Source: Candidatus Omnitrophota bacterium | GTDB lineage: Bacteria > Omnitrophota > Gorgyraeia > Zapsychrales > Fredricksoniimonadaceae | Direction: 5' to 3' | Length of the DNA stretch: 64,000 nucleotides | NCBI GenBank assembly: GCA_903861305.1 | Contig: CAIOTT010000007.1 | Coordinates: forward strand, 6,027 to 70,026 | Shown here: one piece after another, positions 12,010-36,500 of the stretch | How the letters are laid out: each line of letters starts with the position of its first letter | Position numbering within the stretch: position 1 is the stretch's first letter | The notes under the pieces: model-generated | What the model was told of the DNA's origin: nothing | The model's database searches: none | Seen by the model: the letters and a program-made list of their open reading frames with translations, nothing else | Position numbers and translations under genes: made by a program

Positions 12010-12632
12010 ACGCGGGCCAAAGCTTCCTTGAACGCAGGCACATCAAGGGCCACATTGGTCACAAAATCCTCGTGGGCGCGTCCTTGCCGGTAATCGGGCA
12101 TTTTGGGCGGCATGCAAAGGTAACGGGGAACAAGCGAAAGATCCATGCCATGCAAAAGCGTGCCGTGATGAAGGATATAGCGGTGTCCGCGCCGCTGGGC
12201 GTTGCCGGAAAATTTCTTTTCATTAGCAGAGAGGACAAGGTCGCACAATGGCCTCAATTCAGCCGCAACACCGCAGGCACCGAGGGCCGCGATCACCCTG
12301 GAAAGGATATACTGATAGGAACGCGTGATCGAGGCGATCTCGGGATGGCGCGCCTTGGAAAGGATCAATGAGAAGTTCAGGCATCCCGGCCCCTGAACAA
12401 CGGTCCCGCCCCCGGAAGAACGGCGCAGGACGGGAACTCGGTCCTGCCGGCAGGCCGCCGCGTTCACTTCAAGCTCCTCGCGGCAAGTGCGGCCAAGGAC
12501 AATAAAAACCGAAGGCGCCTGCCAAAACCGGAGGACCTCTCCGCTTTCCGCAGTATCAGCCCGGCGCAGGATCTCATCGTCGTATTCCAGATTCCGGAAC
12601 GGGTCCGGAAAAGAAATATCTTCAACCTTCAT
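11988..12632 (-). CDS. Lipoate-protein ligase / octanoyltransferase family protein (BPL_LplA_LipB domain)
   Basis: LRFWQAPSVFIVLGR...VPVLRRSSGGGTVVQGPGCLNFSLIL...KKFSGNAQRRGHRYILHHGTLL. Directly downstream of the glycine cleavage genes, consistent with lipoylating GcvH. Confidence 0.75.
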   Translation of the reverse strand: MKVEDISFPDPFRNLEYDDEILRRADTAESGEVLRFWQAPSVFIVLGRTCREELEVNAAACRQDRVPVLRRSSGGGTVVQGPGCLNFSLILSKARHPEIASITRSYQYILSRVIAALGACGVAAELRPLCDLVLSANEKKFSGNAQRRGHRYILHHGTLLHGMDLSLVPRYLCMPPKMPDYRQGRAHEDFVTNVALDVPAFKEALARVWVCGVF

Positions 12633-19900: not shown

Positions 19901-20265
19901 GTGAGATCATGCGATGTGATCTCCATATGCTGACGCACGCGGAAGGGAGACACCCCGCAGCTGCGAAAAGGCTCATAAAATTTCTGGATGCTGCCTCGTT
20001 TAACCTTCAGGAATGTCCGGAAGCCGTGTGTGCTCGTCAACCGGTAAGACTTGTTGGCCGGCTGGAATTCCATGATGGCCTTGTCTTTGGACTCAATGCC
20101 GAAAGAGGCGATGCCCTGGCCGCGATTGGTATAGAAAACCCACATCGGGATCCCCCATTCCCCTGCGATGCCCGGAAAAAAATTGGCGAACGCTCTTTTC
20201 TGGTTATAATCTTCGACGATAAAAGACCCGTCGGCACGCAAATGATAAGGTGAAGATTTTTTCAT
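16993..20265 (-). CDS. Large conserved protein, possibly glycoside hydrolase/phosphorylase-like (cellobiose-phosphorylase-like superfamily); function uncertain
   Basis: 1090-aa ORF with no signal peptide. Segments such as FFPGIAGEWGIPMWVFYTNRGQGI, DVNQNRRNDVWFN, ADGYNPLVV and GFWIDHWAYNLDLVESY resemble uncharacterised proteins usually auto-annotated as cellobiose phosphorylase-like. That recollection is unverified. Confidence 0.4.
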   Translation of the reverse strand: MKKSSPYHLRADGSFIVEDYNQKRAFANFFPGIAGEWGIPMWVFYTNRGQGIASFGIESKDKAIMEFQPANKSYRLTSTHGFRTFLKVKRGSIQKFYEPFRSCGVSPFRVRQHMEITSHDLTIHEVNETLGLSVTVNYFTVPEEPLAGLARTVTVKNIASKAVAVEMVDGLPVIMPYGQNDWIMKNMCRTIEAWYKVRNLDKKAPYFQLNVEASDIPQVEYIKEGNFYFAFDTKAAPGALLDPVVEAGAVFGEATDLLVPELFLAQKSIRPAQDQQTDNRTPSAMSFVKFTLKPSGAKEIVSITGFARSIGELNGYVRKATGRGFMAQKSARNRAIIEGVKSLAFTHTSSDAFNAYAGQTFLDNVLRGGLPLSLKTSAGPAVFNVYSRKHGDLERDYNAFKLSPTFLSQGNGNYRDVNQNRRNDVWFNSDLKQSAVVNFFSLTQADGYNPLVVCGMSFAAEDSDKLDALIRAHVRSGATSALKEFLKKGFMPGDLFNFIADSGIQLKGKPQDFLGAVLGLCQKFETAQHGEGFWIDHWAYNLDLVESYLSLYPENLRSLLIENREFTFYHNAVHVQPRDKRYVLTPLGVRQYHSLHEGKEDKGHGLRSLRVRHGQGEIYRTNLLVKLLCLIVNKAATLDPSGIGIDMEANKPSWYDSLNGLPGLLGSSICETLELKRFALFALEAVDKIGKGNGENIAVFEELALFVGELKVILEEKANDIDHWNKANTVKEDYREKVRVGISGVEMEMSFAVIRSFLQAVVDKVDRGLERARRPDGLFPTYFYHKVTRHEFVDGVAPAKEGPHVRPLAFERHDLPLFLEGFVHALRCEPDRAAVKALHAKVRRSQLFDKALGMYKVNAPIVGETEEIGRARIFPRGWLENESIWLHMEYKYLLELLRRGLHEEFYQDLATCCVAFMDPLTYGRSILENSSFIVASAHPDKTLHGQGFVARLSGSTAEFVHIWMVMAAGVAPFSVNVNGELELSFKPVLKGSLFSTQEADAVFYTIAGERRQVHLPAGTCAFNFMGRTLIVYHDPKRKDTFGPRHTVIRRIVLHYAGQKTKEISGSVVPSPFAEDVRGGKVTRIDMMMES

Positions 20266-21868: not shown

Positions 21869-22582
21869 TTATTTGAACTCGACTTTAATATCCACCTGCG
21901 CGCCCTGGCGCTTCAAAGACTGGTCTTTGCCGTCTTTCAACATGAACCCGTTGTTGCCGTAAAGCATTTCCATACGGTCATGCTGTTTCTGCGCCGCTTC
22001 CTTGATAGCAATGGCCTGCTCCCGGAGCGCATGCATGTTCTTTTTTACGAGACGAATATGATCCTTAAAGCGCATGATCTTGGCCTTACCCTCAGCGGAA
22101 TCTGAAATGTCCGGCTGGAAGAAGGCTAACTCCTTGCGAGCCGCCTGAAGGTCAACATCAAGTTGTTTGTTCTTCTTGCGAAAAGCGGCCATCATGGCCT
22201 CGAAAGCCTCGCCTTTGGCCTCCGCCTGGACCTTGTATTTCTCAAGGGATTTAATGCCCTGCTTGAGCTGATCGTTCAACCCCTGGACCGATGAAAGCTC
22301 CCCGCGGGTTGTCGTCAACTCTGCGTTAGCGGCCTGAAGTTCAGCTGTAAGGTCAATGACTTTCTTGTTCGCTTCGTCGAGAGCGATCTTCGTCGTCCTG
22401 TACTCCTGGACATAATAACGAAGATTCTTGGATTGGGTCTCGGCTGCTTTTTCAACAAGCGTTACGGTGCGTTCAAGGGTCTGAAAACTCAAGAACCATA
22501 TCACCAGCGAATAAACGGCCAGAACAGCCACAATGATCAAAAGGATGATCTTTAATTTCTTATTCTTTTTTGGCTCTGCCAT
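21869..22582 (-). CDS. Membrane-anchored coiled-coil protein, function unknown
   Basis: N-terminal TM segment (LKIILLIIVAVLAVYSLVIWFL) followed by ~200 aa of heptad-like K/E/A/Q-rich sequence. Confidence 0.6.
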   Translation of the reverse strand: MAEPKKNKKLKIILLIIVAVLAVYSLVIWFLSFQTLERTVTLVEKAAETQSKNLRYYVQEYRTTKIALDEANKKVIDLTAELQAANAELTTTRGELSSVQGLNDQLKQGIKSLEKYKVQAEAKGEAFEAMMAAFRKKNKQLDVDLQAARKELAFFQPDISDSAEGKAKIMRFKDHIRLVKKNMHALREQAIAIKEAAQKQHDRMEMLYGNNGFMLKDGKDQSLKRQGAQVDIKVEFK

Positions 22583-22728: not shown

Positions 22729-24462
22729 TTATTTTTTCTTGAAAAGATCAAAAATAGCGTTCACAGCCTGTGAGGCATCGGGCGAACCAAGTATTTGCTG
22801 CAATTGTTCCCCTCCCTGGGCCACGATCATCTTCTTTGCCAAATATTCGATGTCGGGAATGACCTTGGGTTTTGCCACAGGCCCCTTCACATTCAAAGGG
22901 ATGTAAATACGCCCTTCTTCATCCTTAAGCCCGGCGAGCGCCTTAACGCGCAGCGCCAGGCGGCCGGAAAGGTCAGGCGTGAGACGGACATCCACCTTAA
23001 TATCAAATCCGCTGACAAAGTCAAATGCTCCCTGGGCATGCACCGCAAGATCCTGTGTCGTCGCATCCGCAGCGTCAAGTTGAAAACCACCTTTGACGAG
23101 ATGGCCCTGGGCATGAACCGTCTGAAAATGCGTGCTTCCCTGGCGGATATCATCCTGTGTCGCCTGGGAAAGATCCGGCATGATACTGTCAAGAAGACCG
23201 GGCAGCATGGGAATTTTTCCCAGACTGGCAGACAAGAAATTCATGTTCTCAATGACGGCATCCTTGATGTCCGCCTTTGTCTCTCCACTGAGAGAAGAAA
23301 CTATGGCCTCAGGCGTCGTACCCGAGAATCTCACATTCCCGTCACCCGACAATATTCCCTTGGCTCCGAGCGGCGAGCTGAAGGCAACCGCTATCTTGTT
23401 AATATTGACGCCTTCCGTACTGACAGATCCCGTGACAACTGGCAAAGAAAGATAATCCACGATCAGCGCATTGCCCCGGATCACCCCGTCCGCAACAGTG
23501 GCCGTCAAGGTCTTGATACTGACCTGTTTTTCACTGATATCCGCGTTCAGGGTGATGTTCTCGGCAGGCACAGGGACCAGGCCGACCAACAATAGCCCTT
23601 TTTCAAGCGATGCCTGGGCCTTAAGGGTCGCCAAACCCTTCGCACCCGCTTCAGCTTCGGGAACATCGATCTTAAACAAGCCCGCCGTCTTTTTCAGCGC
23701 TAATGGCTTGAGCATGGGCAACTGGTCTTCCAGCTTTGCGGCATCTATCAGGGCAAGGTCCACACCGATGTTCAGGTCCTTGATACGGACCGCCTGCTTC
23801 AACAGATCAGGGTCAACACGCGCGTCGAGCGTCACATTCTGCTGCGCTGAAAAAAGCGAGGCCTTCAACGAAACCTGGAACGGGCTTACCAGAGAAAGAT
23901 CGCTGACATGGACATCGATCCGCGCCAGTGTTAGCGCCAGCGCGGGCGTGCTTCCCTGGTCTATATATGTAAAACTTCCATTCACGATCTTGATATCATT
24001 CACAAGCAGCGCTGGAATTGCAGCCGCCTGATTATCCGGACCCTTGGCCGGGACCTGAGCGCCCATGGTCTGAACGTTGATCGTACCGTCCTTGGCGCGG
24101 ATCATAACGATACGGGGGGAATCGATCACGATCCCGGTCATCTGCACCTTGCGTTCGAAGAACAGTGCCCCCGGATTCACACCGATCTCAATACGGCTGA
24201 CGGCAAAGAAGGGCTTATCCGAGAACCTGGGGTCATCCGCCAATGAAATATCCTTCACCTCGAGCCGGATGCCATTGGCCAGAGAGACGCCAAGCTCTGC
24301 CCCTCCCACCTTAAGATCCCTGCCAACGGCCTTCGACACCTGCTGGGTGATCTGTGGAAGATAGCTGTTCACGTTGAATGTCTTCAGGAACACAAGCACT
24401 CCGGCCGTAACAAGGATGACCAGGGCTGCAAAAACAACAAGAATGACCTTTAAAGCTTTCAT
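22729..24462 (-). CDS. AsmA family protein (outer-membrane biogenesis / lipid-transport superfamily)
   Basis: 577 aa. The N-terminal anchor MKALKVILVVFAALVILVTAGVLVFLKTFNVNSYLPQITQQVSKAVGRDLKVGGAELGVS is typical of AsmA N-termini. The rest is beta-rich, and the C-terminus has an AsmA-like segment. Confidence 0.7.
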   Translation of the reverse strand: MKALKVILVVFAALVILVTAGVLVFLKTFNVNSYLPQITQQVSKAVGRDLKVGGAELGVSLANGIRLEVKDISLADDPRFSDKPFFAVSRIEIGVNPGALFFERKVQMTGIVIDSPRIVMIRAKDGTINVQTMGAQVPAKGPDNQAAAIPALLVNDIKIVNGSFTYIDQGSTPALALTLARIDVHVSDLSLVSPFQVSLKASLFSAQQNVTLDARVDPDLLKQAVRIKDLNIGVDLALIDAAKLEDQLPMLKPLALKKTAGLFKIDVPEAEAGAKGLATLKAQASLEKGLLLVGLVPVPAENITLNADISEKQVSIKTLTATVADGVIRGNALIVDYLSLPVVTGSVSTEGVNINKIAVAFSSPLGAKGILSGDGNVRFSGTTPEAIVSSLSGETKADIKDAVIENMNFLSASLGKIPMLPGLLDSIMPDLSQATQDDIRQGSTHFQTVHAQGHLVKGGFQLDAADATTQDLAVHAQGAFDFVSGFDIKVDVRLTPDLSGRLALRVKALAGLKDEEGRIYIPLNVKGPVAKPKVIPDIEYLAKKMIVAQGGEQLQQILGSPDASQAVNAIFDLFKKK

Positions 24463-24465
24463 CGT

Positions 24466-24741
24466 TCAATCCCTTCCTCTATTCATGCGATCCTTCATGC
24501 GCTCCATCTGGTCGCGCAACTTCTCCTGCTGGTCCTCAACGCGATCGCGGTTCTTTTCATTCTGATCATGCAATTGCTGCTGCGACTCACGGGGAGATCC
24601 CTGCGGGGGATCATCTTTTTCTTTATACGTTGTCCCCATAAAGAAACTGAACGCACTGGTAAAAGAGTGGGTGTTCAGCACCCTCGCGAGTCCCGCGGAC
24701 ACCACGAGCGTGACTAGAAAGATAGCTATCCATCGTCCCAT
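24466..24741 (-). CDS. Small membrane-anchored protein with a charged Q/E/R/D tail
   Basis: ATG at 24741 gives MGRWIAIFLVTLVVSAGLARVL... then ...QQQLHDQNEKNRDRVEDQQEKLRDQMERMKDRMNRGRD. It sits 3 nt upstream of the AsmA start. Confidence 0.5.
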   Translation of the reverse strand: MGRWIAIFLVTLVVSAGLARVLNTHSFTSAFSFFMGTTYKEKDDPPQGSPRESQQQLHDQNEKNRDRVEDQQEKLRDQMERMKDRMNRGRD

Positions 24742-24789
24742 AGCAACTCCTGCTATCACAAACCATGCTGTTAGGTTGCGTTAAAGATC

Positions 24790-27700
24790 CTAATTGGAGG
24801 AGGACGTGTTCGAGTTCAACACACGGTCGATCTTTTTCAAGTATTTATCGGTATCCTTATACCCCTGGATCAGGCCATTTACCTGTTCAAAATCCTGGCG
24901 CGCGTCTTGATACATTTTTTTCTTGTAGAACCCGATCGCTTCAAGATAAAGCTGCTCGGTCCCGGCCTCAAACTCCTTGCGGATAGCGACGCGTTGCGCA
25001 TCCAGCAGACGCCTTTCTTCGCTCGCGGCCTGCTTGAGAAGCGCCGTTGTCGGATCTTCCGCGGCAACAGAAGGCTGTGACGCTCCCTCGACGGCCACGC
25101 CGTCATACGCCACATTTTTCAATATCTGTTTGACGTCCTGCTGATTGCGGCGAATGAGTTCCGCCTGGTCCATCCCTTTTCCCACAGCCGGATTCAGGTA
25201 GGATTGGCGTTTTTTCTCTTCGGCCTGCTCGATCTCAAGGAGCTGTTTCGCCACTTGCGCGCGGCGTTCACGTTCCTTCTTGTCCACAGCGTCAGCACGG
25301 GCCATACGGCGCTCCACTTTGCTGGGGGACGTCCTGATCTTTTCTTTGGAAGCCGATTCCGCGCTTGCGTCCGTAACCTCAAGTTTCGTTTCCTTCGTCA
25401 CACGGACCGCCTGGGCCTGCTGCTGCTGCGCCGTGCTTTCCAGGACTTTGGCATCCTTGCTCGAAGGTTCCTTGGAAGGGCCGTCCTGCTGCGTGAATTT
25501 TACCCTTTCCTGATGGTCCTGCGCAACGGCCGCAGACGTTCCCTGTTCCTTCTTGGAAAGCATCTCTTGACGCTGTTGCGTATTCTTCCTTTCGATCTCC
25601 CTCAATTCCTGCTGACGGCGGATGTCGAGGTCTCGCTGCGCCGCGATCAGTTCCTGTGTCTTGTGCTTTTCCCGTTCCTGTGCGCGACGGTCCCTTTCCT
25701 CGACTAATTTCGCCTGGGCCCGGCGCTCTTCCAGAAGCCTGTCTTCCTGGGCCTGGCGCTCGGCTTCAGCCGCTTGTTTCTCCTTTTCCATGGCGCGATC
25801 GATCAGGTCAAGGTACTTGTTGGCCTGACGCTTGTCTTTCTCGGTCCCGACCTGAAAAAGCTCTTCATATTTTATGCGCGCCTCACGGTACCGCTTCGCC
25901 TTGTAAAGAGCAGAACCTTCTTCCGCCACCTCAACAGCGCGTTTGATGTCCGTCGAAGGCGGCACAGCGGCTGCCGCAGCCCCCGTAAGATCAGCCGGCT
26001 TGTGATCCAACCCCCTGACTTGAGCTTTTTCACGAAGATGCCGGGCTTCATAATCATGCTGGGACAAGATACGGTCTATGCGCGTGACATACTTCATGGC
26101 AACCCTGTTCGTAGGATCGGCCCGGGCCGCATCCATGAACTTTACGCGCGCTTCAGCAAAATTCTCCGCCGAATACAATTGCTGGCCATCCCGGATCAGC
26201 ACATCAGATTTCTGCCGCGCCGAAATAAAATCCTCGCCAGGTTTCACGCTCTTGGGCGCCATCCGCTTCTTGGCCGCGCTATCGCGCTGAGAGGCGATCT
26301 CTTCCCAACGCGCCTCAAACTGTTCACGGCGCTGGACCATGCGGTTCTTGGAAACCTGTATCTCCTTGAGGATCGACTCAAGGTCATTGAATTTAACCTC
26401 AACCGCCACATAATCTTTCTTCTGTGAAAGCTCCAGTATACTGAGGTTGAGCGCTGTCGCCTTTTCCGCAAGCCCTTTGATCAAGCCCCGGTCACCCGCC
26501 TCTTCAGCGTTGAGCTTTTCTTCATCCTGCGAACGGTCCAGGCGGGCCATAAGAATGACCGTATCCTTGTATCCGGGACTGATCTTTCCGATATCCGTCA
26601 AACGTTCACGGGCCACAGGATAATCCCTGGTGCGCAGCGCGCTGAGCGCCTGCCGGTACAATATCTCGGCCTTCAACTGGGCTTCTCGCTGTTCGTCCTT
26701 CAGACGTTCAAGATCGGCCCGTTCCTTCTTGCGCCGGTCATCACGTTCCTGGGAGATCTCAGACTTACGCGCCTCAACCTCTTCCTGTGCCTTGGCCCCG
26801 GCTTTTTCTTTCAACGCGTTCTTTTCCGCTGCCATGGCTTTAGCCTGGCGGCGCGCCTGCTCTTCTTCTTTACGCTTGGCCCGAAGCGCGGCTTCCTCTT
26901 CAGCCTTCTTCTGGCGCGCGAGATTTTCCGCGAGACGCTGGTGCTCAGCTTCAAGATTCTCGATCAAACGATCGACCTTCGCAAAAGTGCTGGCCGCGCT
27001 GGACAGCGCCTTATCCTGCGACAAGGATTTTATCTGCTGGTATATCGCGCTGGAACGGGCGGCCAGTGCCGCGATAGCCTTGCTGTCTTCAGCCGGCGAA
27101 CGCACCACGGGGATGTTGCCCTGCGGCGCGGCGCTTGCTGCAGTGACCGCTTGAACAACGGCCTGCCTGGCGGCGCTATCCTGCGCAGATTTAACCTCTT
27201 CGGCCGGAGCTTGTTGCACGGGTTGCGCTTCGGGCGCGGGCGAAACTGTTGCGGACTGTTGCTTCTGCTGCGCCAGCAAAGCCTGTATCTCCTTGATGCT
27301 GTCGAGATATTGACGGGTCGAACGATACCCGTTCTTCAGCTGCATGAGTGTTTCAAATTGAACGCGTGCTTCTTCGTATTTCTTTTCCTTATAAAGGCCG
27401 ACAGCCTCTTTGTAAAGTGCGACTGACTTCTCCTCCTCAGTGGAAATATCATGATCCACCTGCGGGGAAGCCGCCTCCGGAAGGTTGATCCCCGCGTCAA
27501 GCGCCGCCTTGCGCAGTTTTGCCTGCCGCACGTGGACATCCTTGTAGTCAGGCCGCAAAGCTTCAACATCCGTGAATTTCTTGAACGCCTCAGGGATCGA
27601 TCCAGCTGCCTCAAGGACATCGCCTTCCCTATATAACGCCTCAGCTTTGGCCAAACGTTCTTTCTCGAATGCCTTATCCCTGGAACGGGCGTCTTCATCG

Positions 27701-30519
27701 ACACGCGCAAGATAATATCTCGCCCTTTTGTAGTTGGGCGCCAGTTGTTCGACCTCAAGGAATTTTATCTTTGCCGACTCAAAATCATTATCGTGGTAAA
27801 AAACAACAGCCTGCGCGTAGGGTTCAGCAGCCTGCAGTTCGGCCCTGGCACGGACCTGACGCGCCGCCTCATCCCGGATATCATTATCGATCCGGGACAT
27901 ATACGTCCGAATGTTGTAGCCCGGATCAACGCCCGCCAGTTCCTGGAACTTTGATTTTGCCTCCGCGAACTTGCGGTTGGCATAAAGCTGGACCGCGTTC
28001 GAATAAAGCCCGTCAGCCTTGCGGGTCTTTTCTTCCTTGGCCAAACGGGCCTCCTGAGAGCGGATATCCTTCTCGATCCGGGAGAGATACAATTCCGTAT
28101 CCTTGTAACCAGGCACGACCCCCTGGACCTCGGCAAACTTGTTCCTGGCCTCAACATAATGGCCTTCCCTGTACAAACCCAAAGCCTGAATGTAAAGAGG
28201 TTCGGCTTGCTGCTCCCTGGCTTTGCGCTCATCTTCCTGGGTCTTGCGGGCGATATCCGCATCAACATGCGCGAGATATTTTGGCGTATCCTTGTAATCA
28301 GGCGCGGCCACTTCTGTCTGGACAAACTTTTCCTTGGCCGCGGCAAAATCACCAGTCTGATACAACGCCACCGCCTGCGCATAAACTTTCTCGGCCGCAT
28401 CGTTCCTGCTGCGCTCCTCGGCATCTTTCTTCTGCTTTTCTATCTGAGCGTCGATACCGCCAAGGATACGGGACGTTTCCTTGTAACCGGGATAGATCAC
28501 TTCAACCTGCAGGAATTTTTCTTTGGCTTCAGCGAATTGTCCACCCTGGTAAAGAACCTGGGCCTGGTCATAGAGCAGCTTGACCTGACTTTCCCTGACC
28601 CGCTCGAGGTCCGCGTCCTTCTTGCGCAGGATATCGTCATCAATATGCTCCAGATACGCGGAGGTCTGTTTGTAATTGGGAAGGGCTACCTCAACGGCAA
28701 TAAAACTTTTCTTGGCTTCTTCGAACTGCCCCGCTTGATAAGAGCTCAACGCCTGTGCGTACAATGTCTCGGCTTCTTTCGCACGCGCCGCTTTGGCAAC
28801 AGCCTCCTCATTAAGACGGATGTCCTCATCAATGCGGTTAAGGTAATACCTTGTTTTTTTCCAGTCCGGGAATATCCCGTCCGTCTCCTGGAATTTGGCC
28901 TTGGCCGCGGCAAAATCCTTGGCGTTATACGCGGCGAGGGCGTCATTATAAACAACATCCGCCCTGTCACGGGCAATATGCAATTTCTCCAGCTCTGCCT
29001 TCTGGGAGGCAATAACATCCTGGCTGCGCTGTGTTTTGGCCAAAAGCTCGATGTCGCTGTCGATCCGCTTAAGGTAGCTGCGCGTTGATTTATAATCCGG
29101 GACCCTCTGATCGACCGCGAGGAAACTTTCCTTCGCCTCGATCAAACGTCCTGACTGATAAAGGCGCAGCGCGGTCTCATACGAACCGTCCGCCTCGGTA
29201 ATGGTCTGCTTGAATTTTTCTTTCTCAGCTTTGCGGCGGGCCGTTTCTTCATCCCAGAGACGGCGATTTTCCTCCGCCTTCTTCTTCATGGCCTCACGTT
29301 CCGCCGCCTGCTTGGCCATATCGTCCATGCGCTTGAGATAATCACGCGTGGATTTATAATTCGGATAGATCCCGTCAACCTCGTTGAACTTTTCTTTGGC
29401 CTGGGCAAAAAGGTCCTTCTCGAACAACGCGACAGCCCCGACATAAATATACTCGGCCTGGTCCCGGACCTGGGCGAATTTTGCCTTCTCGTTGACCTCC
29501 ATGGCTTTACGGCGCTCTTCGACAGTTTTCTTTTCGTCCACGACTTCCTGCCAGCGTTGCTTCCCAAGATCGCGCTGGCGCTGAACGATAGACTGTCTTT
29601 TTTCGTTCTGGATGTCATTTTCAATGCGCGTCAGATACGCGCGCGTGGCCTTGAAATCCGGAACGACCCACTCGACCTCCTGGAACTTTTCACGGGCTGC
29701 GAGATAATCGCGCGCGCCATAAAGTTTAAGCGCCTCCTCATAAACGCCCAGCGCCTGTTTACGCAACTGCTCCTGGCGTTCCTGCTCTTTCTTTTCGATC
29801 TCCTTGCGCCATAACTCTTTCTCATGAAGGCGGGATATCTCATCTTCCTTCTGCTGACGCTCGATCTCTTTCTTTTGTTCCTTCATGTCAAGATGTTCGG
29901 TCTGGATGATATCCTGTTCCACGATCTGCAGATAACTGCGGACCGCCTTGTAATCCGGTGACATTTCCTCGACAAGCTGGAACTCATCCTTGGCCTCACG
30001 GAACTTCTGCTGTTTGTAAAGGCTCACTGCGGCCTGGTAGGCTGTTTCAGCGCGCTCCGTCGCAAGCTTCTGATCCTCGGCCTGACGGCGCTCCTGATCA
30101 GATTCCTGATGTTCAAGGGCGTTGGCCTGGAGTTTGGAACGCCGCTCGCTTTCCTTGATGTAATACTGCATTTCAGGATGTTCGGTGATCTTGATGGCCT
30201 TGTCAAACAACTGCCTGGCTTCCTCAAGGCGGCCTTCATCCCGAAGCTTCATGGCCTGTTCGTAGTACTCACGCGCCTTTTGTTCACGCTGCTGATTGCG
30301 CTTGACGACCGCCTGCTCCTTGATCTTGTCATTCACATTCTTGATATTATCTTTAGACTTCTTGATAAGAAGTTTAAGGTCATAGACATAATCAGACTGG
30401 CCCTTATCTTCTTTAAGAACAGAAGGTTGGCCATCATCCGCGATTTGTGCGTGAGCGTAGGCAACGGTCAGGAAGACCGCGCAGCAGAAGGTGAGTAATA
30501 CCAAACGGTATTGTTTCAT
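24790..30519 (-). CDS. Giant secreted TPR-like / coiled-coil repeat protein (1909 aa)
   Basis: Signal peptide MKQYRLVLLTFCCAVFLTVAYAHA. About 17-18 copies of the motif A(E/D)xLYxxAxxLYxxGx(F/Y)xEAKxKFxxVxxxxPxYKxTxxYLxRIDxDI are separated by K/E/R/Q-rich helical spacers. Confidence 0.85.
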   Translation of the reverse strand: MKQYRLVLLTFCCAVFLTVAYAHAQIADDGQPSVLKEDKGQSDYVYDLKLLIKKSKDNIKNVNDKIKEQAVVKRNQQREQKAREYYEQAMKLRDEGRLEEARQLFDKAIKITEHPEMQYYIKESERRSKLQANALEHQESDQERRQAEDQKLATERAETAYQAAVSLYKQQKFREAKDEFQLVEEMSPDYKAVRSYLQIVEQDIIQTEHLDMKEQKKEIERQQKEDEISRLHEKELWRKEIEKKEQERQEQLRKQALGVYEEALKLYGARDYLAAREKFQEVEWVVPDFKATRAYLTRIENDIQNEKRQSIVQRQRDLGKQRWQEVVDEKKTVEERRKAMEVNEKAKFAQVRDQAEYIYVGAVALFEKDLFAQAKEKFNEVDGIYPNYKSTRDYLKRMDDMAKQAAEREAMKKKAEENRRLWDEETARRKAEKEKFKQTITEADGSYETALRLYQSGRLIEAKESFLAVDQRVPDYKSTRSYLKRIDSDIELLAKTQRSQDVIASQKAELEKLHIARDRADVVYNDALAAYNAKDFAAAKAKFQETDGIFPDWKKTRYYLNRIDEDIRLNEEAVAKAARAKEAETLYAQALSSYQAGQFEEAKKSFIAVEVALPNYKQTSAYLEHIDDDILRKKDADLERVRESQVKLLYDQAQVLYQGGQFAEAKEKFLQVEVIYPGYKETSRILGGIDAQIEKQKKDAEERSRNDAAEKVYAQAVALYQTGDFAAAKEKFVQTEVAAPDYKDTPKYLAHVDADIARKTQEDERKAREQQAEPLYIQALGLYREGHYVEARNKFAEVQGVVPGYKDTELYLSRIEKDIRSQEARLAKEEKTRKADGLYSNAVQLYANRKFAEAKSKFQELAGVDPGYNIRTYMSRIDNDIRDEAARQVRARAELQAAEPYAQAVVFYHDNDFESAKIKFLEVEQLAPNYKRARYYLARVDEDARSRDKAFEKERLAKAEALYREGDVLEAAGSIPEAFKKFTDVEALRPDYKDVHVRQAKLRKAALDAGINLPEAASPQVDHDISTEEEKSVALYKEAVGLYKEKKYEEARVQFETLMQLKNGYRSTRQYLDSIKEIQALLAQQKQQSATVSPAPEAQPVQQAPAEEVKSAQDSAARQAVVQAVTAASAAPQGNIPVVRSPAEDSKAIAALAARSSAIYQQIKSLSQDKALSSAASTFAKVDRLIENLEAEHQRLAENLARQKKAEEEAALRAKRKEEEQARRQAKAMAAEKNALKEKAGAKAQEEVEARKSEISQERDDRRKKERADLERLKDEQREAQLKAEILYRQALSALRTRDYPVARERLTDIGKISPGYKDTVILMARLDRSQDEEKLNAEEAGDRGLIKGLAEKATALNLSILELSQKKDYVAVEVKFNDLESILKEIQVSKNRMVQRREQFEARWEEIASQRDSAAKKRMAPKSVKPGEDFISARQKSDVLIRDGQQLYSAENFAEARVKFMDAARADPTNRVAMKYVTRIDRILSQHDYEARHLREKAQVRGLDHKPADLTGAAAAAVPPSTDIKRAVEVAEEGSALYKAKRYREARIKYEELFQVGTEKDKRQANKYLDLIDRAMEKEKQAAEAERQAQEDRLLEERRAQAKLVEERDRRAQEREKHKTQELIAAQRDLDIRRQQELREIERKNTQQRQEMLSKKEQGTSAAVAQDHQERVKFTQQDGPSKEPSSKDAKVLESTAQQQQAQAVRVTKETKLEVTDASAESASKEKIRTSPSKVERRMARADAVDKKERERRAQVAKQLLEIEQAEEKKRQSYLNPAVGKGMDQAELIRRNQQDVKQILKNVAYDGVAVEGASQPSVAAEDPTTALLKQAASEERRLLDAQRVAIRKEFEAGTEQLYLEAIGFYKKKMYQDARQDFEQVNGLIQGYKDTDKYLKKIDRVLNSNTSSSN
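27520..28962 (-). repeat. Coding tandem repeat, ~189-bp (62-64 aa) period, ~8 units
   Basis: The LY of the motif falls at aa 524, 586, 650, 713, 776, 839, 901 and 963 of the 1909-aa protein, giving spacings of 62-64 aa. Confidence 0.7.
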
Positions 30520-30592: not shown

Positions 30593-33500
30593 TCATTCTA
30601 GCACAGCCTTTGAAGCATCTTCCACAATTTTTTCCCACAATTTTCTGGCCTGCCAAAAGTCGCCTTTGTCAAAATATTCCCGCGCCCGCTGGAACGCGTT
30701 ATAAACCTTTTCTTCAAAGTCAATATGATGCCTGACGAACTGCGCCGCTTCCTCATACATCATCTGGGTCACGATGATGATCCGCTTGTACATCTGCTGT
30801 GCCTCATCATAATGCCCGCGTTTGTTGGCGGCCTGTGCCTGTTGATACACACGGTTCAATTCCAGGACGATCGGGCTGTCTGTGCGTTTGAACTCGGACT
30901 TGATCATCTTCCAGGCATACAGTTCGACACGGCGGTCGATCCACCGGGCCCTGGCGCGGGCGCGCTCCGCGGGGCTTTGGTCGTATAATTTCCCGGTCAT
31001 GCGCAGATAAGGGCCCTGCACCGTATAACTCAGGTTTGTCAGGTCATCCACAAAATTCGTAAAGTTATAGCCGATACCCATTTCCACGTTATCGTTAACG
31101 CTATGCACAGCTTCAAGAAGGAACCCGCTCTTGCGGTCCCTGGCTTCCTGCACCGCAAGCATCCGGTATTCTGCGCCGATCTTCCAATCCTGGTCAATGG
31201 TATAGTTGGCCCGGCTTACGGATAACCAGGTATGTGTCTTCGCAAAATCAAACCCGACGACCTTTTCATCCATGATCCTCAACGCCAGTTTTTCGATCAA
31301 TTCCCATTTATCATTCAGCTCATATGCGGCCCCTGCGGTCAGGACATGCATCTTGGTCGCCTCAATATCGGTCGCGGTCGTCTGGTCTATGGGGCCTTTA
31401 TTCTCTTTATAGGTATATTCACTAAAGAGGTTAACGCGGTCCATGGCCACAGGCCGGTAGGCTGCGCCCAGCATGATCTCCTTGTACCCTGCCTGCGTTG
31501 TTCCGGTATTCATGTCCTTGGTGACGGAATAATCGAACTTCCCGTGGACCGTGGTCTGTTCATTCAACTTCCCGTCAGCCGCTTGATAAAAAACATACTG
31601 GTGCGTATCAACAGGGCCTTTATCGATACGAACCTCCGCCTTGGTGGAACTCTGCAGAACGATCTTGCCTGTTTCCTTGTCCTTGTCAACATACCCCAGG
31701 CCCGTGGACAGCACGGTGCGGTCGGTCAGCGTCCCGTCAAGGTTATGGATCTTGCCCTTCTCCAGGCTGCCCAGCGCGGACACCTTGTCGTTGACGTCAC
31801 CCGTCAAACCGAAAATATTCGAGTCAGTAACGCCGGTCTGGCCATCGGCAATCTTGCGGGCGTACGACGTTTCAAGGTTGCGGCCATCCTTTGTCCGTGT
31901 GATCTTATAGGTGTTACCCTCCTCCTGGCTCGTTGTCCCGATCGAGTAAGAACGTTCCGTCGCGACTTGGATATTCGGGGTCATGGCGCCTTTTTCTCCC
32001 GCCGTGATGACCGTCGTCTTCCCCTCGACCGGCCTGTCGTCGATCTTGACACCGCCCGTTGTTTCACGCCCCGCCGTGTCCCTGCGCGATCCGTCCAGGC
32101 TCAACGCCTGATGGGCCTTTGTCGCGTCCGGTGACTGGCTGGTCTCAACCCCGAGCTTAAGATCAGTATTGTCGACCTTGGTCGCCCCGCTAAGTGCCAG
32201 AGCCCCTTCCTGCGCACCCGTCGTGGTCTGTGATACGCTCGTTAAAGCCTGGAGGGTTGTCGACTCATTCACCTTGGTCGTACCTCCCAGCGCGACCGTG
32301 CTCTTCGGCCCGGAGCTATTGCCCTGTGTCACGGCCGCCGTAGCGTCGAGCGATGTCTTGTCATTGATCTGGCCTTTGCTTCCCAGGGCCACTGTCTGTG
32401 AAAGCTCTCCCGAGCGTGCCCTGGCCAGGGTCAGATCTGTACTCAAAGCCAGTTTGGGCGAAACATTCGCCGTGACACCCGCTTTGGTGGCCGTACCGGC
32501 GCTGCCTACGGTCTCTTCGAGGGTCCCCTTGAGCTTGTTGGTCAATTGGTGGTCAACACCGAGCGTTGTTGCTGTATTTCCCGTCCCTGACACCTCGACC
32601 TGTTCCTTCAAGCGGATGTCCGTCTTTTCATTGAGGGCATACTGCGCTTCTGCCGCGGCGGTGGTGCTGTTGGCCTGCTGGGTCGTGGTCGTCCCGTTGC
32701 CCTTGGTCTGGGTGCTCGAGAACGCCTCGGTCAACCTCAAACGGCGGGCATCATGGACCAGCTGGACCATGGTCGTTGTTGTTTCCTGTCCGCCCACCTG
32801 CATCGAGGTCTGCAGATTACCATTAGTGATCAACCGCTGGACGTCACGGCTCGCGGTGAGGCGGGTGACGGGCGTCATGTCAAACGTCATGGCCATCCCG
32901 TTCATTGCCTTGCCCTGCTGGGACGTGGTCGATCCCGTCGAGAAGCCATCCCCGATCCACTTGTAATAACTCTTAAGGCCGACCCTGTCGAACAGGCGCG
33001 CGTCCTGCGTGATCCCGTACGCCTTGCCCTTGCTGCTCGCGGCGTTGGACACATCGCTGAAGGTGATGCCGCCGTCTGTCGATATAAAATTGTTCTGGGC
33101 CGCGGCCGTGGTCTCGGCGTATTCGGCGCGCACGATAGAATCCTTGGCCAGGTGGACCGTCACATCCTCTCCGCTCAACTGGTATTTGCCGGTTGCCTGC
33201 GTTTCAGAAACATACGTAGCCCCCGCCACAACATTCTTGCCAAGGGCTTCCGTGACCCGTGCGCCCTCGGTCCCCTCGGCCAGCTGGTCATGGACGAAGT
33301 ATTCGTAATCCGCCACCACATACATCGGATCCCCGCCGAGAAGATTGTTGGAGATCAGCTGATTATTATCAACGGACATCGACAAGGGGCGCCAGAAGAG
33401 GATGCGGCCATTGGAGGGGTCAATGGAATAATCAACACCGCTCTTCATCTCCACAATGGATTTCACGAGCCCCGTGACCGCGTCCCTCACCTCCACTTTC

Positions 33501-36500
33501 ACCTTGTCCGTACCCTGCACAATATCATTGTTCTTGAAATAATAGAGCGACCCGCCCGTGGCCAGGAACTCGTTATGCGCAGCCCGCTGGTGGACTTCGG
33601 CGTGAAAGACCGCTATGCCGGTCTTCGACTCGCCGTGATCCGTTGTGGCGACACTCTTGTAATCAAGCTTCCCGCCATACAGCGTCCGGGTATAGTTCGC
33701 GAATTCCGTGTCATTGAACGCCACCGCGTAATTACCCCAGATCGCCTGGGATTTGTCCCAGTCGACAGAAAGGTACAAAGGCCCTTCCGTGTTCGTCGCG
33801 TCGTAATTCAAGGTCGAATTGTCGCCGTAAACCGGATAATATTCATTGTCCTTGAATGTGCGCAGAGCCGCCTTCGTCTGGCGTTCCGTGTCAAAACTTG
33901 ACGTCACGATATATTTCCCCTGGATCTTGCCTTTGAGATAATAGGCCATCTTGCCCTGATCGTAGAACCCGCGGCGATACTGGTCATTGCTCTGGACCGG
34001 CTCGATGTGGCCGCGGTCCATGTTATACCCGACCTTGCCATCGCCCATGGCCACGAACATGAGGTAATCTTCCCCGACCTTCAGCGGCTTCCTGTAGTGG
34101 GCTGTCTGGACCGGTGCGGCCTCAATGACCTCGGGCATACCCGGCGTTGCAGCCGCCGCGTGTTGATCAACCCCCGGATTCACGGATGCCTGCCCCGTGA
34201 CCGGCCTGGACCATCCCTCCTGGCCTTTGTCCTGGGCAGAGACTACCTCAAGTTCGTAATCCCCATCAGGCAAAATGACCTCCATCGGGACAGCCTGTTC
34301 CGCGGACTGCCCGGCGGCGAGGTCCTGCGCGGTCAGCCCGTGTTGTTCAGCCACAGGCACTTCCGCGAACACCTGGCCATTCCTGAGGATCACGACCTGG
34401 CGCACATCACTGCCCACGGGCTTAAGCGTGAGGGTGTCCCCCTTGACCCAGATATTGCGGGTTTTCGTGACATCCCCTCCCGCGAGCGCGAGAAGGAAAT
34501 TATGATATTTCTTTGTGCGGGCCGCGGCCTCATCCTTCTTTTCCTGGGCCGTCCGCAATCGCTGGCGATCAAGCATCTCGGCATCTGTCATCACCTTCAA
34601 CGCCAGCGGCTGTTCTTTGGTCTCGTCCCATTTCTCATGATCGCCCTGGACCTTGAGCACATACGCGTAATGATGGTCCGCGCGGAGGTACCGGCCCAAG
34701 GAATCCCTCCCGTCCCAGTAAACAGGATCATTGATGTTGGAGCGGGTCCCTTTGAACGAGCGCACCAGCCTCTTGGTGTCCGCGTCAACAACATCAAGCT
34801 GCCAGGATACGAGGAACGGCGCGTAATTGGTGAACAGCCGGAACTCGATCTGTTCGATCACGGTGTCGTTGTGCAGGAGTATCCCGTCGTTGAACATGTT
34901 GACGTTCAGCCTTGGCTTGGGTGCGGTCGGGCTTTGGTCGACCTTCAGTTCTTTCTGGAAATACTCTGCATCCTTGCCCACGATCTGGGTGTTATCGATA
35001 TTGACACCGAAATTGACCTTGATGATGCTCCCCGGGGTCACATCCACGACCTGGACCTTGTCCGTTGTCAAATAGGCTCCCGGCGGCAATGTCCTCTCAT
35101 CGAGCCTCAACAGATGCCGGCCTGGCACAAGCGCCGGGATATGGAACTGCCCGTTCTCGTCCGCTGTGACCACCGTCCCGTCTTCCATCGCCAGGCTCAC
35201 ATTGGGCACCGGCCCCTCGATGATCTCCTGGCGGTCTTCATAACTATACTGCGGGTCATCCTGACGGCCATTCTCGTTGAGGTCATAGAACACCTTGCCG
35301 AACACGGTGCCCGCGTCAAAAAGCGGGTCCAGCACGATCTTGACGGTAGCCACGGAATTGTTGGAGATCACAAAGCCCGTGGGATACTGCATGTTCGCCA
35401 CGTTATCATAGGCCCCGGGGGCCACGCCGGCACCGATGACCAGCTGGTAACGTACGATCTTTTTCTGGCCCGGCATGAAATTACCGGGAAGGAACGTGAG
35501 GGGCCTGTTACCCGTCGGATCCGGCATGGGGACCCCATCCAGCAAGGCACGGCCGCTCATGAACTTGAAGCCGGGCGGGATCACGTCCACAAGCCGCGGC
35601 GCGAGCACCGGGTTCGTTGCCGAGAGGCATTCGATCGTGACCGTGTAGGTCACGACCTCACCGACCCTGGCTTCCGTCTTGTTCGCCTTTTTCTCGATCC
35701 TGAACAGATACGGGGTCCCGTCCATGGGCTGGTCGATCTGGAAGACCACGCCGTTCGAGATGAACACATCGCCGCGCGAACCATTGGTGATGCTGCGGCC
35801 CGGCGGGAGCTTGTCATCGGGCAGGGTCGTCGGATAGGTGTACGCCGGTGCCGTGACCAGCAGCTTGTAGGAGCCATCCGCTGTCAGGAACGAGAACACC
35901 CCGTCCGCCGCTGTGATCTTGGGGTTGGTGTCGGTGGCCGCGATGTCGACCCCGGGCACCGCCTTGATCCCGTTCGATCTCAAGATGGTCACACTCGCCC
36001 CGCCGAGCGGCTGGCTGGAGGTCGAGTCAAAGACAACACCGTCGATATCGCTGACGATATATGTCAGAAGCGCGCTTGAAACGCCGTTAACGACAACGGA
36101 AAGGTAATTGTGGCCGCGCCCCAAAGGACGGGTCAGCGTGACCGCGAATGTCCCATCCCCGGCAACAACGCCCTGGCCCATGTAAGCCTCCGGAGGCAGG
36201 GAGAGCAGGTAATGACCTTCCTGGTCTTTGGCGACGATCAGCACCTGGCTTCCCGGCGCGGCGTTGCCCGTGATCACAGGCTTGCTCGTCAGGACGAACG
36301 ATTGATCCAGGGGCGATGTGATCACCGGGACCTGTGCCGGTGTCGGGGTGACAACGACCGAGAACGTCGAAGAATTCCCGGCAAGGGTCAGGTAATACGG
36401 GGTGATCTTGTTCGACACCGGATTGTTCGGGTCCGAATCAAGGACCAGCTTGGTCACCGTTCCCTGTGAGGCATCATCTTTCCCGACAACAACGCGGAAA

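What the first reader, a model, noticed from the sequence alone, without database searches (positions are those of the whole stretch)
24790..30519. 1909-aa secreted protein built from ~18 single TPR-like hairpins embedded in charged coiled coil, with a strict 62-64-aa period in the centre
The unit is A(E/D)xLYxxAxxLYxxGxFxEAKxKFxxVxxxxP(D/G/N)YKxTxxYLxRIDxDI followed by ~25-60 aa of K/E/R/Q/A helix. Eight central units keep a 62-64-aa spacing (nt 27520-28962). The outer units have longer spacers, and a Q/A/P-rich low-complexity stretch lies in the middle (aa ~1040-1110).

Isolated TPR-like hairpins spaced regularly along a very long coiled coil are unlike canonical contiguous TPR solenoids. 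The arrangement suggests a ruler or scaffold that presents periodic binding sites.
Basis: seen in the sequence. Interest (0 to 1): 0.6.

Follow-up and report, generated by a model that had tools for sequence, protein, structure and literature searches.

The report
Exported helical rod of spaced TPR nodes
This is a real, conserved 1,909-residue exported protein of the uncultured phylum Omnitrophota, built as a long alpha-helical rod with 18 small TPR-like knots set at fixed spacings. It is always encoded directly after a giant protein with a C-terminal outer-membrane-type barrel, so it is probably an envelope scaffold for that protein. No experiment bears on this.

Summary
The ORF lies on the minus strand (24790..30519) and encodes 1,909 aa with a Sec-type signal peptide. 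It has 18 TPR-like units. Eight central units are spaced 63,63,63,63,63,62,62 aa (autocorrelation z=17 at lag 63).

The "coiled coil" reading does not hold. AlphaFold2 (pLDDT 93) shows 40-residue helices alternating with 14-residue helices. The third helix of each unit runs unbroken through the charged spacer into the first helix of the next unit. This gives a spectrin-like chain of 1.5-TPR three-helix nodes, with no global match in the PDB (TM 0.15-0.19).

Across about 200 relatives, unit spacings are quantised (59, 63, 77, 88, 92, 99, 128 aa). They differ by near-whole alpha-helical turns: the best-fitting period is 3.61 aa in two separate sets.

The family was found only in Omnitrophota and related PVC metagenome genomes. 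In 51 of 55 loci its gene directly follows a ~3,000-3,400-aa gene. That protein ends in an outer-membrane-type beta-barrel and a helical tail that should be periplasmic.

Best explanation (about 0.4): a periplasmic rod-shaped scaffold that docks or arrays the giant protein. Function is untested. It is a new variant of a known kind.

The parts
24790..30519 (-). Whole gene: 1,909-aa exported TPR-node rod protein
   Evidence: ORF list and translation. 92 homologues of 1,100-2,300 aa. One residue (aa 1773, S vs F) differs from public protein P0001.
30448..30519 (-). Signal peptide, aa 1-24 (MKQYR / LVLLTFCCAVFLTVAY / AHA|Q). No conserved lipobox.
   Evidence: Read from the sequence. Signal-peptide-like N-termini across the family, with Cys not conserved. 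No predictor was run.
30130..30402 (-). N-terminal head, aa ~40-130, the most conserved part of the family. It includes unit 1 and a short heptad-patterned stretch at aa 43-70.
   Evidence: Invariant L51, S55, R74, N75, R78, E79, R83, K107, E116 among 58 family members. Heptad contrast 0.55 at aa 43-70. A head HMM found the head in 71 of 112 further cluster representatives.
28972..30060 (-). Units 2-5 (aa 154-516), spaced 99, 99, 88 and 77 aa. Charged spacers of 47, 47, 36 and 25 aa.
   Evidence: HMM hits. Lag-99 autocorrelation z=11.1. No Pro and one Gly in these spacers. The 99-99 spacing is nearly universal in the family.
27496..28971 (-). Central array: 8 units (aa 517-1008) spaced 63,63,63,63,63,62,62 aa. 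Each is a 40-residue helix, a 3-residue turn, a 14-residue helix and a 6-residue loop.
   Evidence: AF2 of aa 505-830: pLDDT 93.1, pTM 0.55. Zero indels among 20 orthologues.
27286..27435 (-). Unit 14 (aa ~1029-1078), degenerate: NGYRSTRQYLDSIKE in place of PxYKxT...
   Evidence: HMM i-E 3.3e-11.
27082..27285 (-). Q/A/P/S/V-rich low-complexity linker, aa ~1079-1146, probably flexible
   Evidence: Composition windows of at least 70% QAPSV start at aa 1074-1122. 7 Pro in the spacer after unit 14.
24970..27081 (-). C-terminal half, aa ~1147-1850: units 15-17 (aa 1281, 1435, 1525) separated by long E/K/R/A/Q-rich helical stretches and Pro/Gly-containing linkers
24814..24969 (-). Last unit (aa 1851-1902), 7 aa from the C-terminus. 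The target lacks the C-terminal xLDxF(D/E) tail motif present in 46 of 91 homologues.
   Evidence: HMM i-E 2e-13. Termini survey.
30593..40666 (-). Upstream partner gene: 3,357-aa protein with a signal peptide, beta-helix-like repeats, Ig-like, DUF11 and prealbumin-like domains, then a C-terminal beta-barrel and a helical tail
   Evidence: Pfam and NCBIfam. Sequence. Its C-terminal region lies immediately upstream of the TPR-rod gene in 51 of 55 loci. Gaps are -46 to 205 nt, with a 4-nt overlap in 4 loci.
30992..31963 (-). Giant protein aa 2902-3225: at least 18 long antiparallel beta strands (outer-membrane-type barrel), last strand ...GIGYNFTNF
   Evidence: AF2 pLDDT 80.8. Foldseek best hits are TonB-dependent transporter barrels, porins, MtrB and LptD, E ~1e-6, TMq 0.3-0.45. 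Weak Pfam OMP_b-brl hit, E 0.0019.
30599..30973 (-). Giant protein aa 3232-3356: post-barrel tail of four helices (29, 18, 48, 20 aa) with two sub-threshold TPR-like hairpins. Inferred to be periplasmic.
   Evidence: AF2. Sub-threshold TPR_1/TPR_2/TPR_16 hits. It is not matched by the rod's unit HMM.
24466..24759 (-). 97-aa small protein with one hydrophobic helix and a charged tail, 30 nt downstream
   Evidence: Translation. Weak DUF4175 hit. Matched by tblastn only in the closest relative, L004.
22729..24462 (-). 577-aa AsmA-family protein with an N-terminal membrane anchor
   Evidence: Pfam AsmA 93 bits. Sub-threshold NCBIfam AsmA and TamB hits. Present downstream in most loci with enough downstream DNA, but absent in L003 and L042.
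21869..22582 (-). 237-aa protein with an N-terminal membrane anchor and a coiled coil
   Evidence: Translation. Pfam hits are of coiled-coil type only. Conserved in synteny. Next to or fused with PilZ in L002 and L003.

Best explanation
The gene encodes a Sec-exported, almost entirely alpha-helical rod.

Architecture:
- Each of its 18 units is a one-and-a-half TPR: helix A, helix B, the canonical TPR proline, then a capping helix.
- The capping helix does not stop. It continues through a charged, Pro/Gly-free spacer and becomes helix A of the next unit.
- The chain is therefore a staggered series of long helices (40 residues in the centre, about 76 in the 99-aa units, the latter inferred), tied together at small three-helix nodes, much as spectrin repeats are joined.
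- Spacer lengths differ only by near-whole numbers of helical turns, so successive nodes keep the same relative orientation.

Inferred function:
- The rod stays in the periplasm.
- It acts as a structural scaffold for the giant protein encoded just upstream. That protein ends in an outer-membrane-type beta-barrel followed by a helical tail that should point into the periplasm.
- The rod would dock these tails, or the inner-membrane-anchored AsmA-like and coiled-coil proteins encoded downstream, through its conserved N-terminal head and its phased nodes. It would thereby anchor or space copies of the giant protein along the envelope.

Shown here: the repeat anatomy, the fold, the family distribution and the synteny. 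Inferred: the compartment, the binding partner and the scaffold role.
For: Anatomy:
- 18 units and a strict central period.
- AF2 pLDDT 93.1 with alternating 40- and 14-residue helices.
- Foldseek gives only local TPR similarity.
- The 13 spacers between aa 131 and 956 contain no Pro and one Gly.
- Low hydrophobicity and weak heptad contrast in the spacers.

Length constraint:
- No gaps over 326 columns in 20 orthologues.
- Family-wide preferred spacings are 99, 63, 92, 88, 77, 128 and 59 aa.
- A scan of periods from 2.5 to 15 aa peaks at 3.61 aa in the first set (R=0.61, null p~0.006) and again at 3.61-3.62 aa in 112 further representatives (R=0.39, p~0.012).
- In an isolated chain nothing would hold a solvent-exposed spacer to whole turns. 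This points to a constraint from a partner or a lattice (inference).

Compartment and partner:
- Signal peptides across the family, with no conserved lipobox.
- The giant gene lies directly upstream in 51 of 55 loci, down to 29% identity, with short gaps or 4-nt overlaps.
- The giant's C-terminus is modelled as a barrel of at least 18 strands plus four helices.
- The three downstream genes encode proteins with N-terminal hydrophobic stretches read as membrane anchors.
Against: - No experiment, localisation data or complex prediction is available. The multimer question could not be addressed.
- The rod's unit HMM does not match the giant protein's tail, so nothing in the sequences links the two directly.
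- AsmA is missing from some loci (L003, L042), so that link is not universal.
- A relative in 'PVC group bacterium ex Bugula neritina AB1' (P0180) carries the head and units with no giant gene upstream on its 16.9-kb contig.
- The rest of the conserved gene order (YqeY, GH161 phosphorylase, glycine cleavage) looks metabolic or housekeeping. Synteny alone therefore overstates functional linkage.
- The helical-turn statistic rests on few independent insertion or deletion events that many sequences inherited.
- The 99-aa units and the C-terminal half were not modelled.
Confidence: 0.4

Rival explanations
1. Periplasmic chaperone or assembly factor. The rod uses its TPR-like nodes to hold the roughly 2,900-residue N-terminal part of the giant protein, or its barrel, during transit to the outer membrane. 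It would work with the AsmA/TamB-like protein, as TPR proteins such as BamD or BepA assist outer-membrane protein assembly.
For: Gene order giant - rod - AsmA-like. Sub-threshold NCBIfam similarity to BamD and to the TPR chaperone LcrH/SycD. A Foldseek local hit to BamD. TamB-type proteins assist assembly of autotransporters and other large outer-membrane proteins (established knowledge).
Against: A transient holdase gives no obvious reason for zero-indel length conservation or for spacers quantised in helical turns. A single 1.5-TPR node lacks the multi-repeat groove that TPR chaperones use (plus knowledge of TPR structures). All the family hits are below threshold.
Confidence: 0.2
2. Secreted extracellular fibre or coat component. 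After Sec export it crosses the outer membrane, for example through a type II secretion system, and decorates the exposed part of the giant protein or forms a fibrous layer.
For: A signal peptide with no membrane anchor. A type II-like secretin with a GspC-like gene lies 17 kb away in the window. [quoted passage not shown] The node spacing of about 4 nm, estimated by inference, is close to the length of an Ig-like domain.
Against: No secretion signal or dedicated transporter is linked to the gene. The secretin cluster is not part of the conserved synteny. The neighbours in the cluster have predicted membrane anchors, and the post-barrel tail of the giant protein should be periplasmic.
Confidence: 0.15
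3. Periplasmic TPR scaffold of an exopolysaccharide export route. It would be analogous to the TPR domains of BcsC, PgaA and PelB or to AlgK, which pair with an outer-membrane barrel and bind modifying enzymes.
For: An adjacent barrel-bearing protein. A membrane-anchored polysaccharide deacetylase is conserved a few genes downstream. PilZ-domain proteins occur in the cluster in L002 and L003.
Against: No synthase or glycosyltransferase lies in the conserved block. The deacetylase is separated from the rod gene by YqeY, which is probably cytoplasmic. The barrel belongs to a 3,357-aa protein rich in Ig-like domains, unlike known export porins. The rod is not a contiguous TPR superhelix.
Confidence: 0.1
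4. One reading: TPR hairpins embedded in a dimeric or trimeric coiled coil. The rod would exist only as an oligomer whose spacers pair with each other.
For: A lag-7 signal in the autocorrelation (z=6.1). A heptad-patterned stretch in the conserved head, aa 43-70. Spacing differences of 7, 11 and 14 residues are also coiled-coil periods.
Against: The spacers hold only 0-23% large hydrophobic residues, and their heptad contrast is mostly 0.35 or less. The AF2 monomer model is confident without a partner. The best-fitting period is 3.61 aa, the value for a free alpha-helix, rather than 3.5.
Confidence: 0.1

Closest known systems
Canonical TPR solenoid proteins (consensus CTPR8 8chy, OGT TPR 1w3b, P58IPK 2y4t, BamD 3qky)
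   Same: The helix A - turn - helix B motif with aromatic and small signature residues and the position-32 proline. Pfam TPR_2 above threshold. Foldseek local hits at E ~1e-4.
   Different: The hairpins are not adjacent and build no superhelical groove. Each is followed by a helix that runs on for 40 or more residues into the next hairpin. TM-scores are 0.15-0.19. A profile search found no PDB sequence relative at E <= 0.01.
Spectrin repeats and the bacterial spectrin-like protein EzrA
   Same: They work alike in architecture: a rod of three-helix nodes in which the last helix of one node is continuous with the first helix of the next. The outer units have a ~99-aa period, against 106 aa for spectrin (AF2; the comparison is from general knowledge).
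   Different: No sequence similarity and no Pfam spectrin hit. The middle helix is only 14 residues, so the bundle is short and most of each long helix is not part of a bundle. This protein is exported, whereas spectrin and EzrA are cytoplasmic.
CpoB/YbgF ('TolA-binding protein', the JGI label on several homologues)
   Same: A periplasmic protein that combines a helical N-terminal part with TPR motifs.
   Different: CpoB is about 260 aa, with one coiled coil and one compact TPR domain, and is encoded in the tol-pal operon. Here there is no NCBIfam YbgF hit and no tol-pal neighbours, and the protein is seven times longer. The label is not supported.
ER/K-type single alpha-helix (SAH) spacers (myosin X, caldesmon)
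   Same: Spacers rich in E, K, R, Q and A, free of Pro and Gly, with a density of i to i+4 opposite-charge pairs up to 0.42. They are modelled as lone helices.
   Different: The spacers are short (11-47 aa) and clamped at both ends by nodes. Several contain conserved Trp or Leu.
Periplasmic TPR scaffolds paired with outer-membrane barrels (BcsC, PgaA, PelB, AlgK-AlgE)
   Same: A TPR-type periplasmic element encoded with, or fused to, an outer-membrane barrel.
   Different: Those are contiguous TPR superhelices linked to polysaccharide synthases. Here the barrel ends a 3,357-aa protein rich in Ig-like domains, and no synthase lies in the conserved block.

Membership tests
TPR (Pfam TPR_2, PF07719) | Match to the 34-residue profile above the curated score | tested here: met
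   90.8 bits against a cut-off of 27, with 5 stretches passing on their own.
TPR (Pfam TPR_2, PF07719) | Signature residues: aromatic at 4, 11 and 24, small at 8, 20 and 27, Pro at 32 | tested here: met
   Unit consensus AE.lY.QAlaLYq..dFeeAK.KFleVe.v.PdYKdT..YL.RID.DI from 133 units. Helix A is offset by one residue from the canonical register (my mapping).
TPR solenoid domain | Three or more directly adjacent repeats packing into a superhelix with a concave groove | tested here: not met
   AF2 shows 40- and 14-residue helices alternating. TM-score to TPR solenoids is 0.15-0.19 with rmsd about 40 A.
Coiled coil (two or more strands) | Heptad or hendecad hydrophobic seam along the spacers | tested here: not met
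   Large hydrophobic residues make up 0-23% of the spacers in the N-terminal array, aa 131-956. Heptad contrast is mostly 0.35 or less outside the nodes, and aa 43-70 of the head scores 0.55. These are home-made scores, not MARCOIL or DeepCoil.
Coiled coil (two or more strands) | Oligomeric pairing of helices | not testable with these tools
   Only monomer prediction was available.
Spectrin repeat | Three-helix bundle whose last helix continues into the next repeat | tested here: inconclusive
   Continuous inter-node helices are modelled. However, the middle helix is only 14 residues, and model coordinates could not be inspected.
Spectrin repeat | Sequence match to the Pfam spectrin profile | tested here: not met
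   No such hit at E <= 1.
CpoB/YbgF TolA-binding protein | Match to the family model, about 260 aa, tol-pal operon context | tested here: not met
   NCBIfam returns only sub-threshold LcrH/SycD and BamD hits. The neighbours are a giant barrel-bearing protein and an AsmA-like protein, with no tol-pal genes.
ER/K single alpha-helix | Dense i to i+4 E-K/R pairs, no hydrophobic seam, monomeric stiff helix | tested here: inconclusive
   Pair density is 0.2-0.42 in some spacers (aa 393-434, 1205-1288) and lower elsewhere. No dedicated predictor was run.
Exopolysaccharide-export TPR scaffold (BcsC/PgaA/PelB/AlgK type) | TPR element with an outer-membrane barrel plus a synthase and modifying enzymes in one operon | tested here: inconclusive
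   A barrel-bearing neighbour and a deacetylase nearby, but no synthase in the conserved block.

The most novel reading that the evidence does not exclude
The rod is the subunit of a periplasmic, spectrin-like skeleton lying beneath the outer membrane of ultra-small Omnitrophota cells. Its nodes are kept in helical phase so that they all face one surface. There they dock the periplasmic tails of the giant barrel-anchored protein at fixed intervals of roughly 4-10 nm, setting the spacing of a surface coat. This would be a previously undescribed kind of bacterial envelope cytoskeleton.
Probability: 0.15. Interest if true: 0.8.

Novelty: new variant of a known kind. Interest (0 to 1): 0.55.

Why it matters
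Omnitrophota are uncultured, ultra-small and possibly predatory bacteria, noted for giant genes of unknown role (PMC10066038; bioRxiv 10.1101/2023.11.21.568195). Neither paper mentions this family.

The work here defines a family restricted to this phylum and its close relatives, and it gives three things:
- **A fold variant.** TPR hairpins are used as knots in a long helical rod rather than as a solenoid.
- **A length rule.** Spacers differ by near-whole helical turns, which points to a higher-order assembly.
- **A fixed gene partnership.** The gene is paired with a ~3,400-aa protein that ends in an outer-membrane-type barrel. This gives a concrete, testable handle on how these cells build and organise their surface proteins.

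The rod design may also interest protein engineers, because it sets rigid distances with modular nodes.

Tried and rejected
- **Other copies in the window.** The unit HMM run on all six-frame ORFs of the window found no further copies, and none in the giant protein's tail.
- **PDB by sequence.** A profile search with the central array found nothing at E <= 0.01.
- **NCBIfam.** Only sub-threshold LcrH/SycD and BamD hits. The JGI name 'TolA-binding protein' was rejected.
- **Operon boundaries.** Promoter and terminator scans around the gene were no better than shuffled sequence and say nothing about them.
- **Literature.** Searches on Omnitrophota giant proteins and on Velamenicoccus found no description of this family.
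- **The 97-aa downstream ORF.** I considered that it might be a split-off C-terminal tail carrying the xLDxF(D/E) motif. It is not: it is a small protein with one hydrophobic helix.
- **Recent tandem duplication.** Rejected, because units keep positional orthology across species.
Full report
**1. The observation**

The window holds an ATG-started ORF of 1,909 codons at 24790..30519 on the minus strand. Its N-terminus (MKQYR-LVLLTFCCAVFLTVAY-AHA|Q) has the layout of a Sec signal peptide. Comparable N-termini occur throughout the family, and there is no conserved lipobox cysteine.

A regex for P-x-[YWF]-[KN] finds 13 units. An HMM built from them finds 18 units at i-E <= 1.5e-4, plus two marginal ones. 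Spacings run 75, 99, 99, 88, 77, 63, 63, 63, 63, 63, 62, 62, 73, and then become irregular.

A motif-free BLOSUM62 autocorrelation gives z=17.4 at lag 63, with harmonics at 126, 189 and 252, in aa 500-1010. It gives z=11.1 at lag 99 in aa 130-520.

Pfam calls TPR_2 at 90.8 bits.

- The strand is minus.
- The central period is 62-63 aa, not 62-64.
- The central spacers are 10-11 aa beyond a 52-aa unit.
- The Q/A/P-rich stretch lies at aa ~1074-1151.

**2. The structure**

I predicted aa 505-830 (five central units) with an alignment of 20 orthologous segments (A1). The model has pLDDT 93.1 and pTM 0.55. It is entirely helical, with a strict alternation: a 40-residue helix, a 3-residue turn, a 14-residue helix and a 6-residue loop.

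So the helix after the TPR proline (YKxTxxYLxRIDxDI) does not end. It runs through the charged spacer and becomes helix A of the next unit. Each unit is a 1.5-TPR three-helix node, and the nodes are strung on continuous helices.

Foldseek against the PDB finds only local TPR similarity (CTPR8, P58IPK, OGT, BamD; E ~1e-4), with TM-scores of 0.15-0.19 and rmsd about 40 A. No solved structure has this overall shape. A profile search of PDB sequences finds nothing.

The spacers do not look like a coiled coil:
- The 13 spacers between aa 131 and 956 contain no Pro and one Gly.
- They hold 0-23% large hydrophobic residues.
- They have weak heptad contrast, and in places a high density of i to i+4 opposite-charge pairs.

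They look like single charged helices. The 99-aa units and the C-terminal half were not modelled, so their continuity is inferred from composition.

Length is also an inference. Taking 0.15 nm per helical residue and a 14-residue back-step at each node gives about 3.9 nm per 63-aa unit and about 9.3 nm per 99-aa unit. That is about 60 nm for aa 154-1010, and perhaps 100-200 nm for the whole chain if its helical parts are extended.

**3. The family and its length rule**

A search of 5.8 billion proteins returned 92 relatives of 1,100-2,300 aa. Every one that carries an organism name is from Candidatus Omnitrophota/Omnitrophica.

A scan of one genome per GTDB species found 52 loci:
- Most are in MAGs labelled Omnitrophota or Omnitrophica.
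- Several carry the label 'uncultured Planctomycetales'.
- One is labelled Ca. Elulimicrobium, which NCBI files under the Patescibacteria group.
- One is labelled Lysobacterales, on a 9.6-kb contig.

I take the odd labels as naming or binning issues, because these loci share the synteny.

A profile search of 1.84 billion cluster representatives found 157 at E <= 1e-30 and 568 at E <= 1e-10. One of the weaker hits, from 'PVC group bacterium ex Bugula neritina AB1', has the head and units. Another is a CHAT-TPR protein in an unrelated context. TPR hairpins of this sequence type are thus not unique to the family, but the periodic rod is.

Orthologues of the target share the pattern 99-99-88-77-63x6-62. 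Over the 326 central columns, 20 sequences of 41-70% identity align without a single gap. Units keep positional identity across species: 0.51-0.54 to the orthologous unit against 0.35 to other units. The array is therefore old and each node is individual.

Other subfamilies use 92-99x6, or 92-92-128-128-99-128-128. The preferred spacings (59, 63, 77, 88, 92, 99, 128) differ by 4, 11, 14, 25, 29, 36 or 65 residues. All of these are close to whole alpha-helical turns.

A blind scan of periods from 2.5 to 15 aa peaks at 3.61 aa in both data sets:

| Set | Peak period | R | Null p |
|---|---|---|---|
| First set (92 homologues) | 3.61 aa | 0.61 | ~0.006 |
| 112 further representatives | 3.61-3.62 aa | 0.39 | ~0.012 |

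The sequences are related, so the number of independent events is small. Even so, the result fits rigid single-helix spacers with selection on the relative orientation of neighbouring nodes. A free monomer would not impose that constraint.

The most conserved part of the family is the N-terminal head, aa ~40-130, with nine invariant residues. About half of the members end in a short xLDxF(D/E) motif after a low-complexity linker. The target lacks this motif.

**4. Surroundings**

Directly upstream, after a 73-nt gap, lies a 3,357-aa gene (30593..40666, minus strand). Its product has a signal peptide, beta-helix-like repeats and Ig-like, DUF11 and prealbumin-like domains.

I modelled its last 457 residues with 16 homologous fragments, giving pLDDT 80.8. 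The model has at least 18 long antiparallel strands followed by four helices of 29, 18, 48 and 20 residues. Foldseek matches the strands to TonB-dependent transporter barrels, porins, MtrB and LptD. Pfam gives a weak OMP_b-brl hit and sub-threshold TPR hits in the tail.

In known outer-membrane barrels both ends face the periplasm (established knowledge). The post-barrel tail should therefore be periplasmic.

By tblastn, the giant protein's C-terminal region sits immediately upstream of the rod gene in 51 of 55 loci, down to 29% identity (gene calls). Gaps range from -46 to 205 nt, with 4-nt overlaps in four loci.

Downstream in the window come:
- a 97-aa protein with one hydrophobic helix;
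- a 577-aa AsmA-family protein with an N-terminal anchor;
- a 237-aa anchored coiled-coil protein.

Further downstream are YqeY, an anchored polysaccharide deacetylase, a GH161-type beta-1,3-glucan phosphorylase and glycine-cleavage genes. This order is conserved, but the distal genes look unrelated in function. AsmA is absent from the most distant loci.

**5. How it most likely works**

Shown here:
- It is an exported, rod-like chain of phased 1.5-TPR nodes.
- It is restricted to Omnitrophota and close relatives.
- It is genetically locked to a giant protein with an outer-membrane-type barrel and a helical tail.

Inferred:
- It remains in the periplasm.
- It serves as a scaffold that docks the tail of the giant protein, the inner-membrane-anchored neighbours, or both.
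- Its phased nodes present their faces to one side.

I put this at about 0.4. The rivals are:
- an assembly chaperone for the giant protein, working with the AsmA/TamB-like protein (0.2);
- a secreted coat fibre (0.15);
- a polysaccharide-export scaffold of the BcsC/PgaA/AlgK type (0.1);

The strict length conservation and the helical-turn rule argue for a structural rather than a transient role. Nothing here tests binding or location.

**6. Comparison with known systems, and novelty**

- It is a member of the TPR sequence family: the profile and signature residues are met.
- It is not a TPR solenoid: that was tested and not met.
- It resembles spectrin or EzrA in architecture but is not a member of that family.
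- It is not CpoB/YbgF, despite the JGI label.

I found no paper describing it.

I rate it a new variant of a known kind, with interest 0.55. The fold variant, the turn-quantised spacing and the fixed partnership with a giant barrel-bearing protein are unusual and testable. The function remains inferred.

Noticed in passing
window 30593-40666 (-): The 3,357-aa upstream protein ends in an outer-membrane-type barrel of at least 18 strands, followed by a ~125-aa four-helix tail with two sub-threshold TPR-like hairpins. A T/S/G-rich, beta-looking region begins near aa 2600, so the barrel may be larger than the part modelled. Recent surveys of Omnitrophota long proteins reported no canonical barrels (bioRxiv 10.64898/2026.06.07.730766).
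   Followed up: partly
window 16993-20265 (-): A 1,090-aa protein with no Pfam hit is a close sequence relative of solved GH161 beta-1,3-glucan phosphorylases (9qqk_A, E 1e-221). It is conserved in synteny with the rod cluster in most loci.
   Followed up: partly
window 1783-8115 (-): A type II secretion-like trio: a GspC-like gene, a secretin, and a 286-aa coiled-coil plus TPR protein with weak PilW/Tgl-like similarity. Two FGE-sulfatase-domain proteins follow. None is part of the conserved rod synteny.
   Followed up: no
window 24466-24759 (-): A 97-aa ORF with one hydrophobic helix and a highly charged tail lies between the rod gene and the AsmA-like gene. By tblastn it is matched only in the closest relative (L004). 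L002 has an unrelated 141-aa gene in the same position.
   Followed up: partly
homologues P0005-P0091 (C-termini); target aa 1903-1909: About half of the family ends with a conserved short motif (R..AVS.ALD.FD.N.K) after a Pro/Ser/Ala-rich linker. Many members begin their mature chain with a (D/E)xxPS(V/L/F)xx(E/D)K motif. These look like docking peptides at the two ends of the rod. The target and its nearest relatives lack the C-terminal motif.
   Followed up: partly
L056 (contig MDLB01000072.1), gene 6237-14984: A 2,915-aa relative (OED36709.1) in 'PVC group bacterium ex Bugula neritina AB1' has the conserved head and 8 units. It has no giant gene upstream on its 16.9-kb contig.
   Followed up: partly
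L011, L051 and the 'uncultured Planctomycetales' loci: Several syntenic loci carry record titles outside Omnitrophota: Ca. Elulimicrobium (filed under the Patescibacteria group at NCBI), Lysobacterales, and Planctomycetales. These are probably labelling or binning issues rather than real spread of the family.
   Followed up: partly
L002 18160-18564; L003 16685-18007: PilZ-domain (c-di-GMP receptor type) proteins sit in the cluster in some relatives. In L003 the PilZ domain is in one gene with the counterpart of the window's 237-aa coiled-coil protein. The window itself has no PilZ hit there.
   Followed up: no
window 44184-46943, 47128-49971 and 57204-60338 (all -): Four further ORFs of 919, 326, 611 and 1,044 aa have no significant Pfam match. 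The 1,203-aa ORF at 60352-63963 carries a GT2 glycosyltransferase domain.
   Followed up: no
window aa 1773 of the target (nt 25201-25203): The window's protein differs from the public identical-length protein P0001 at one residue (S vs F).
   Followed up: no
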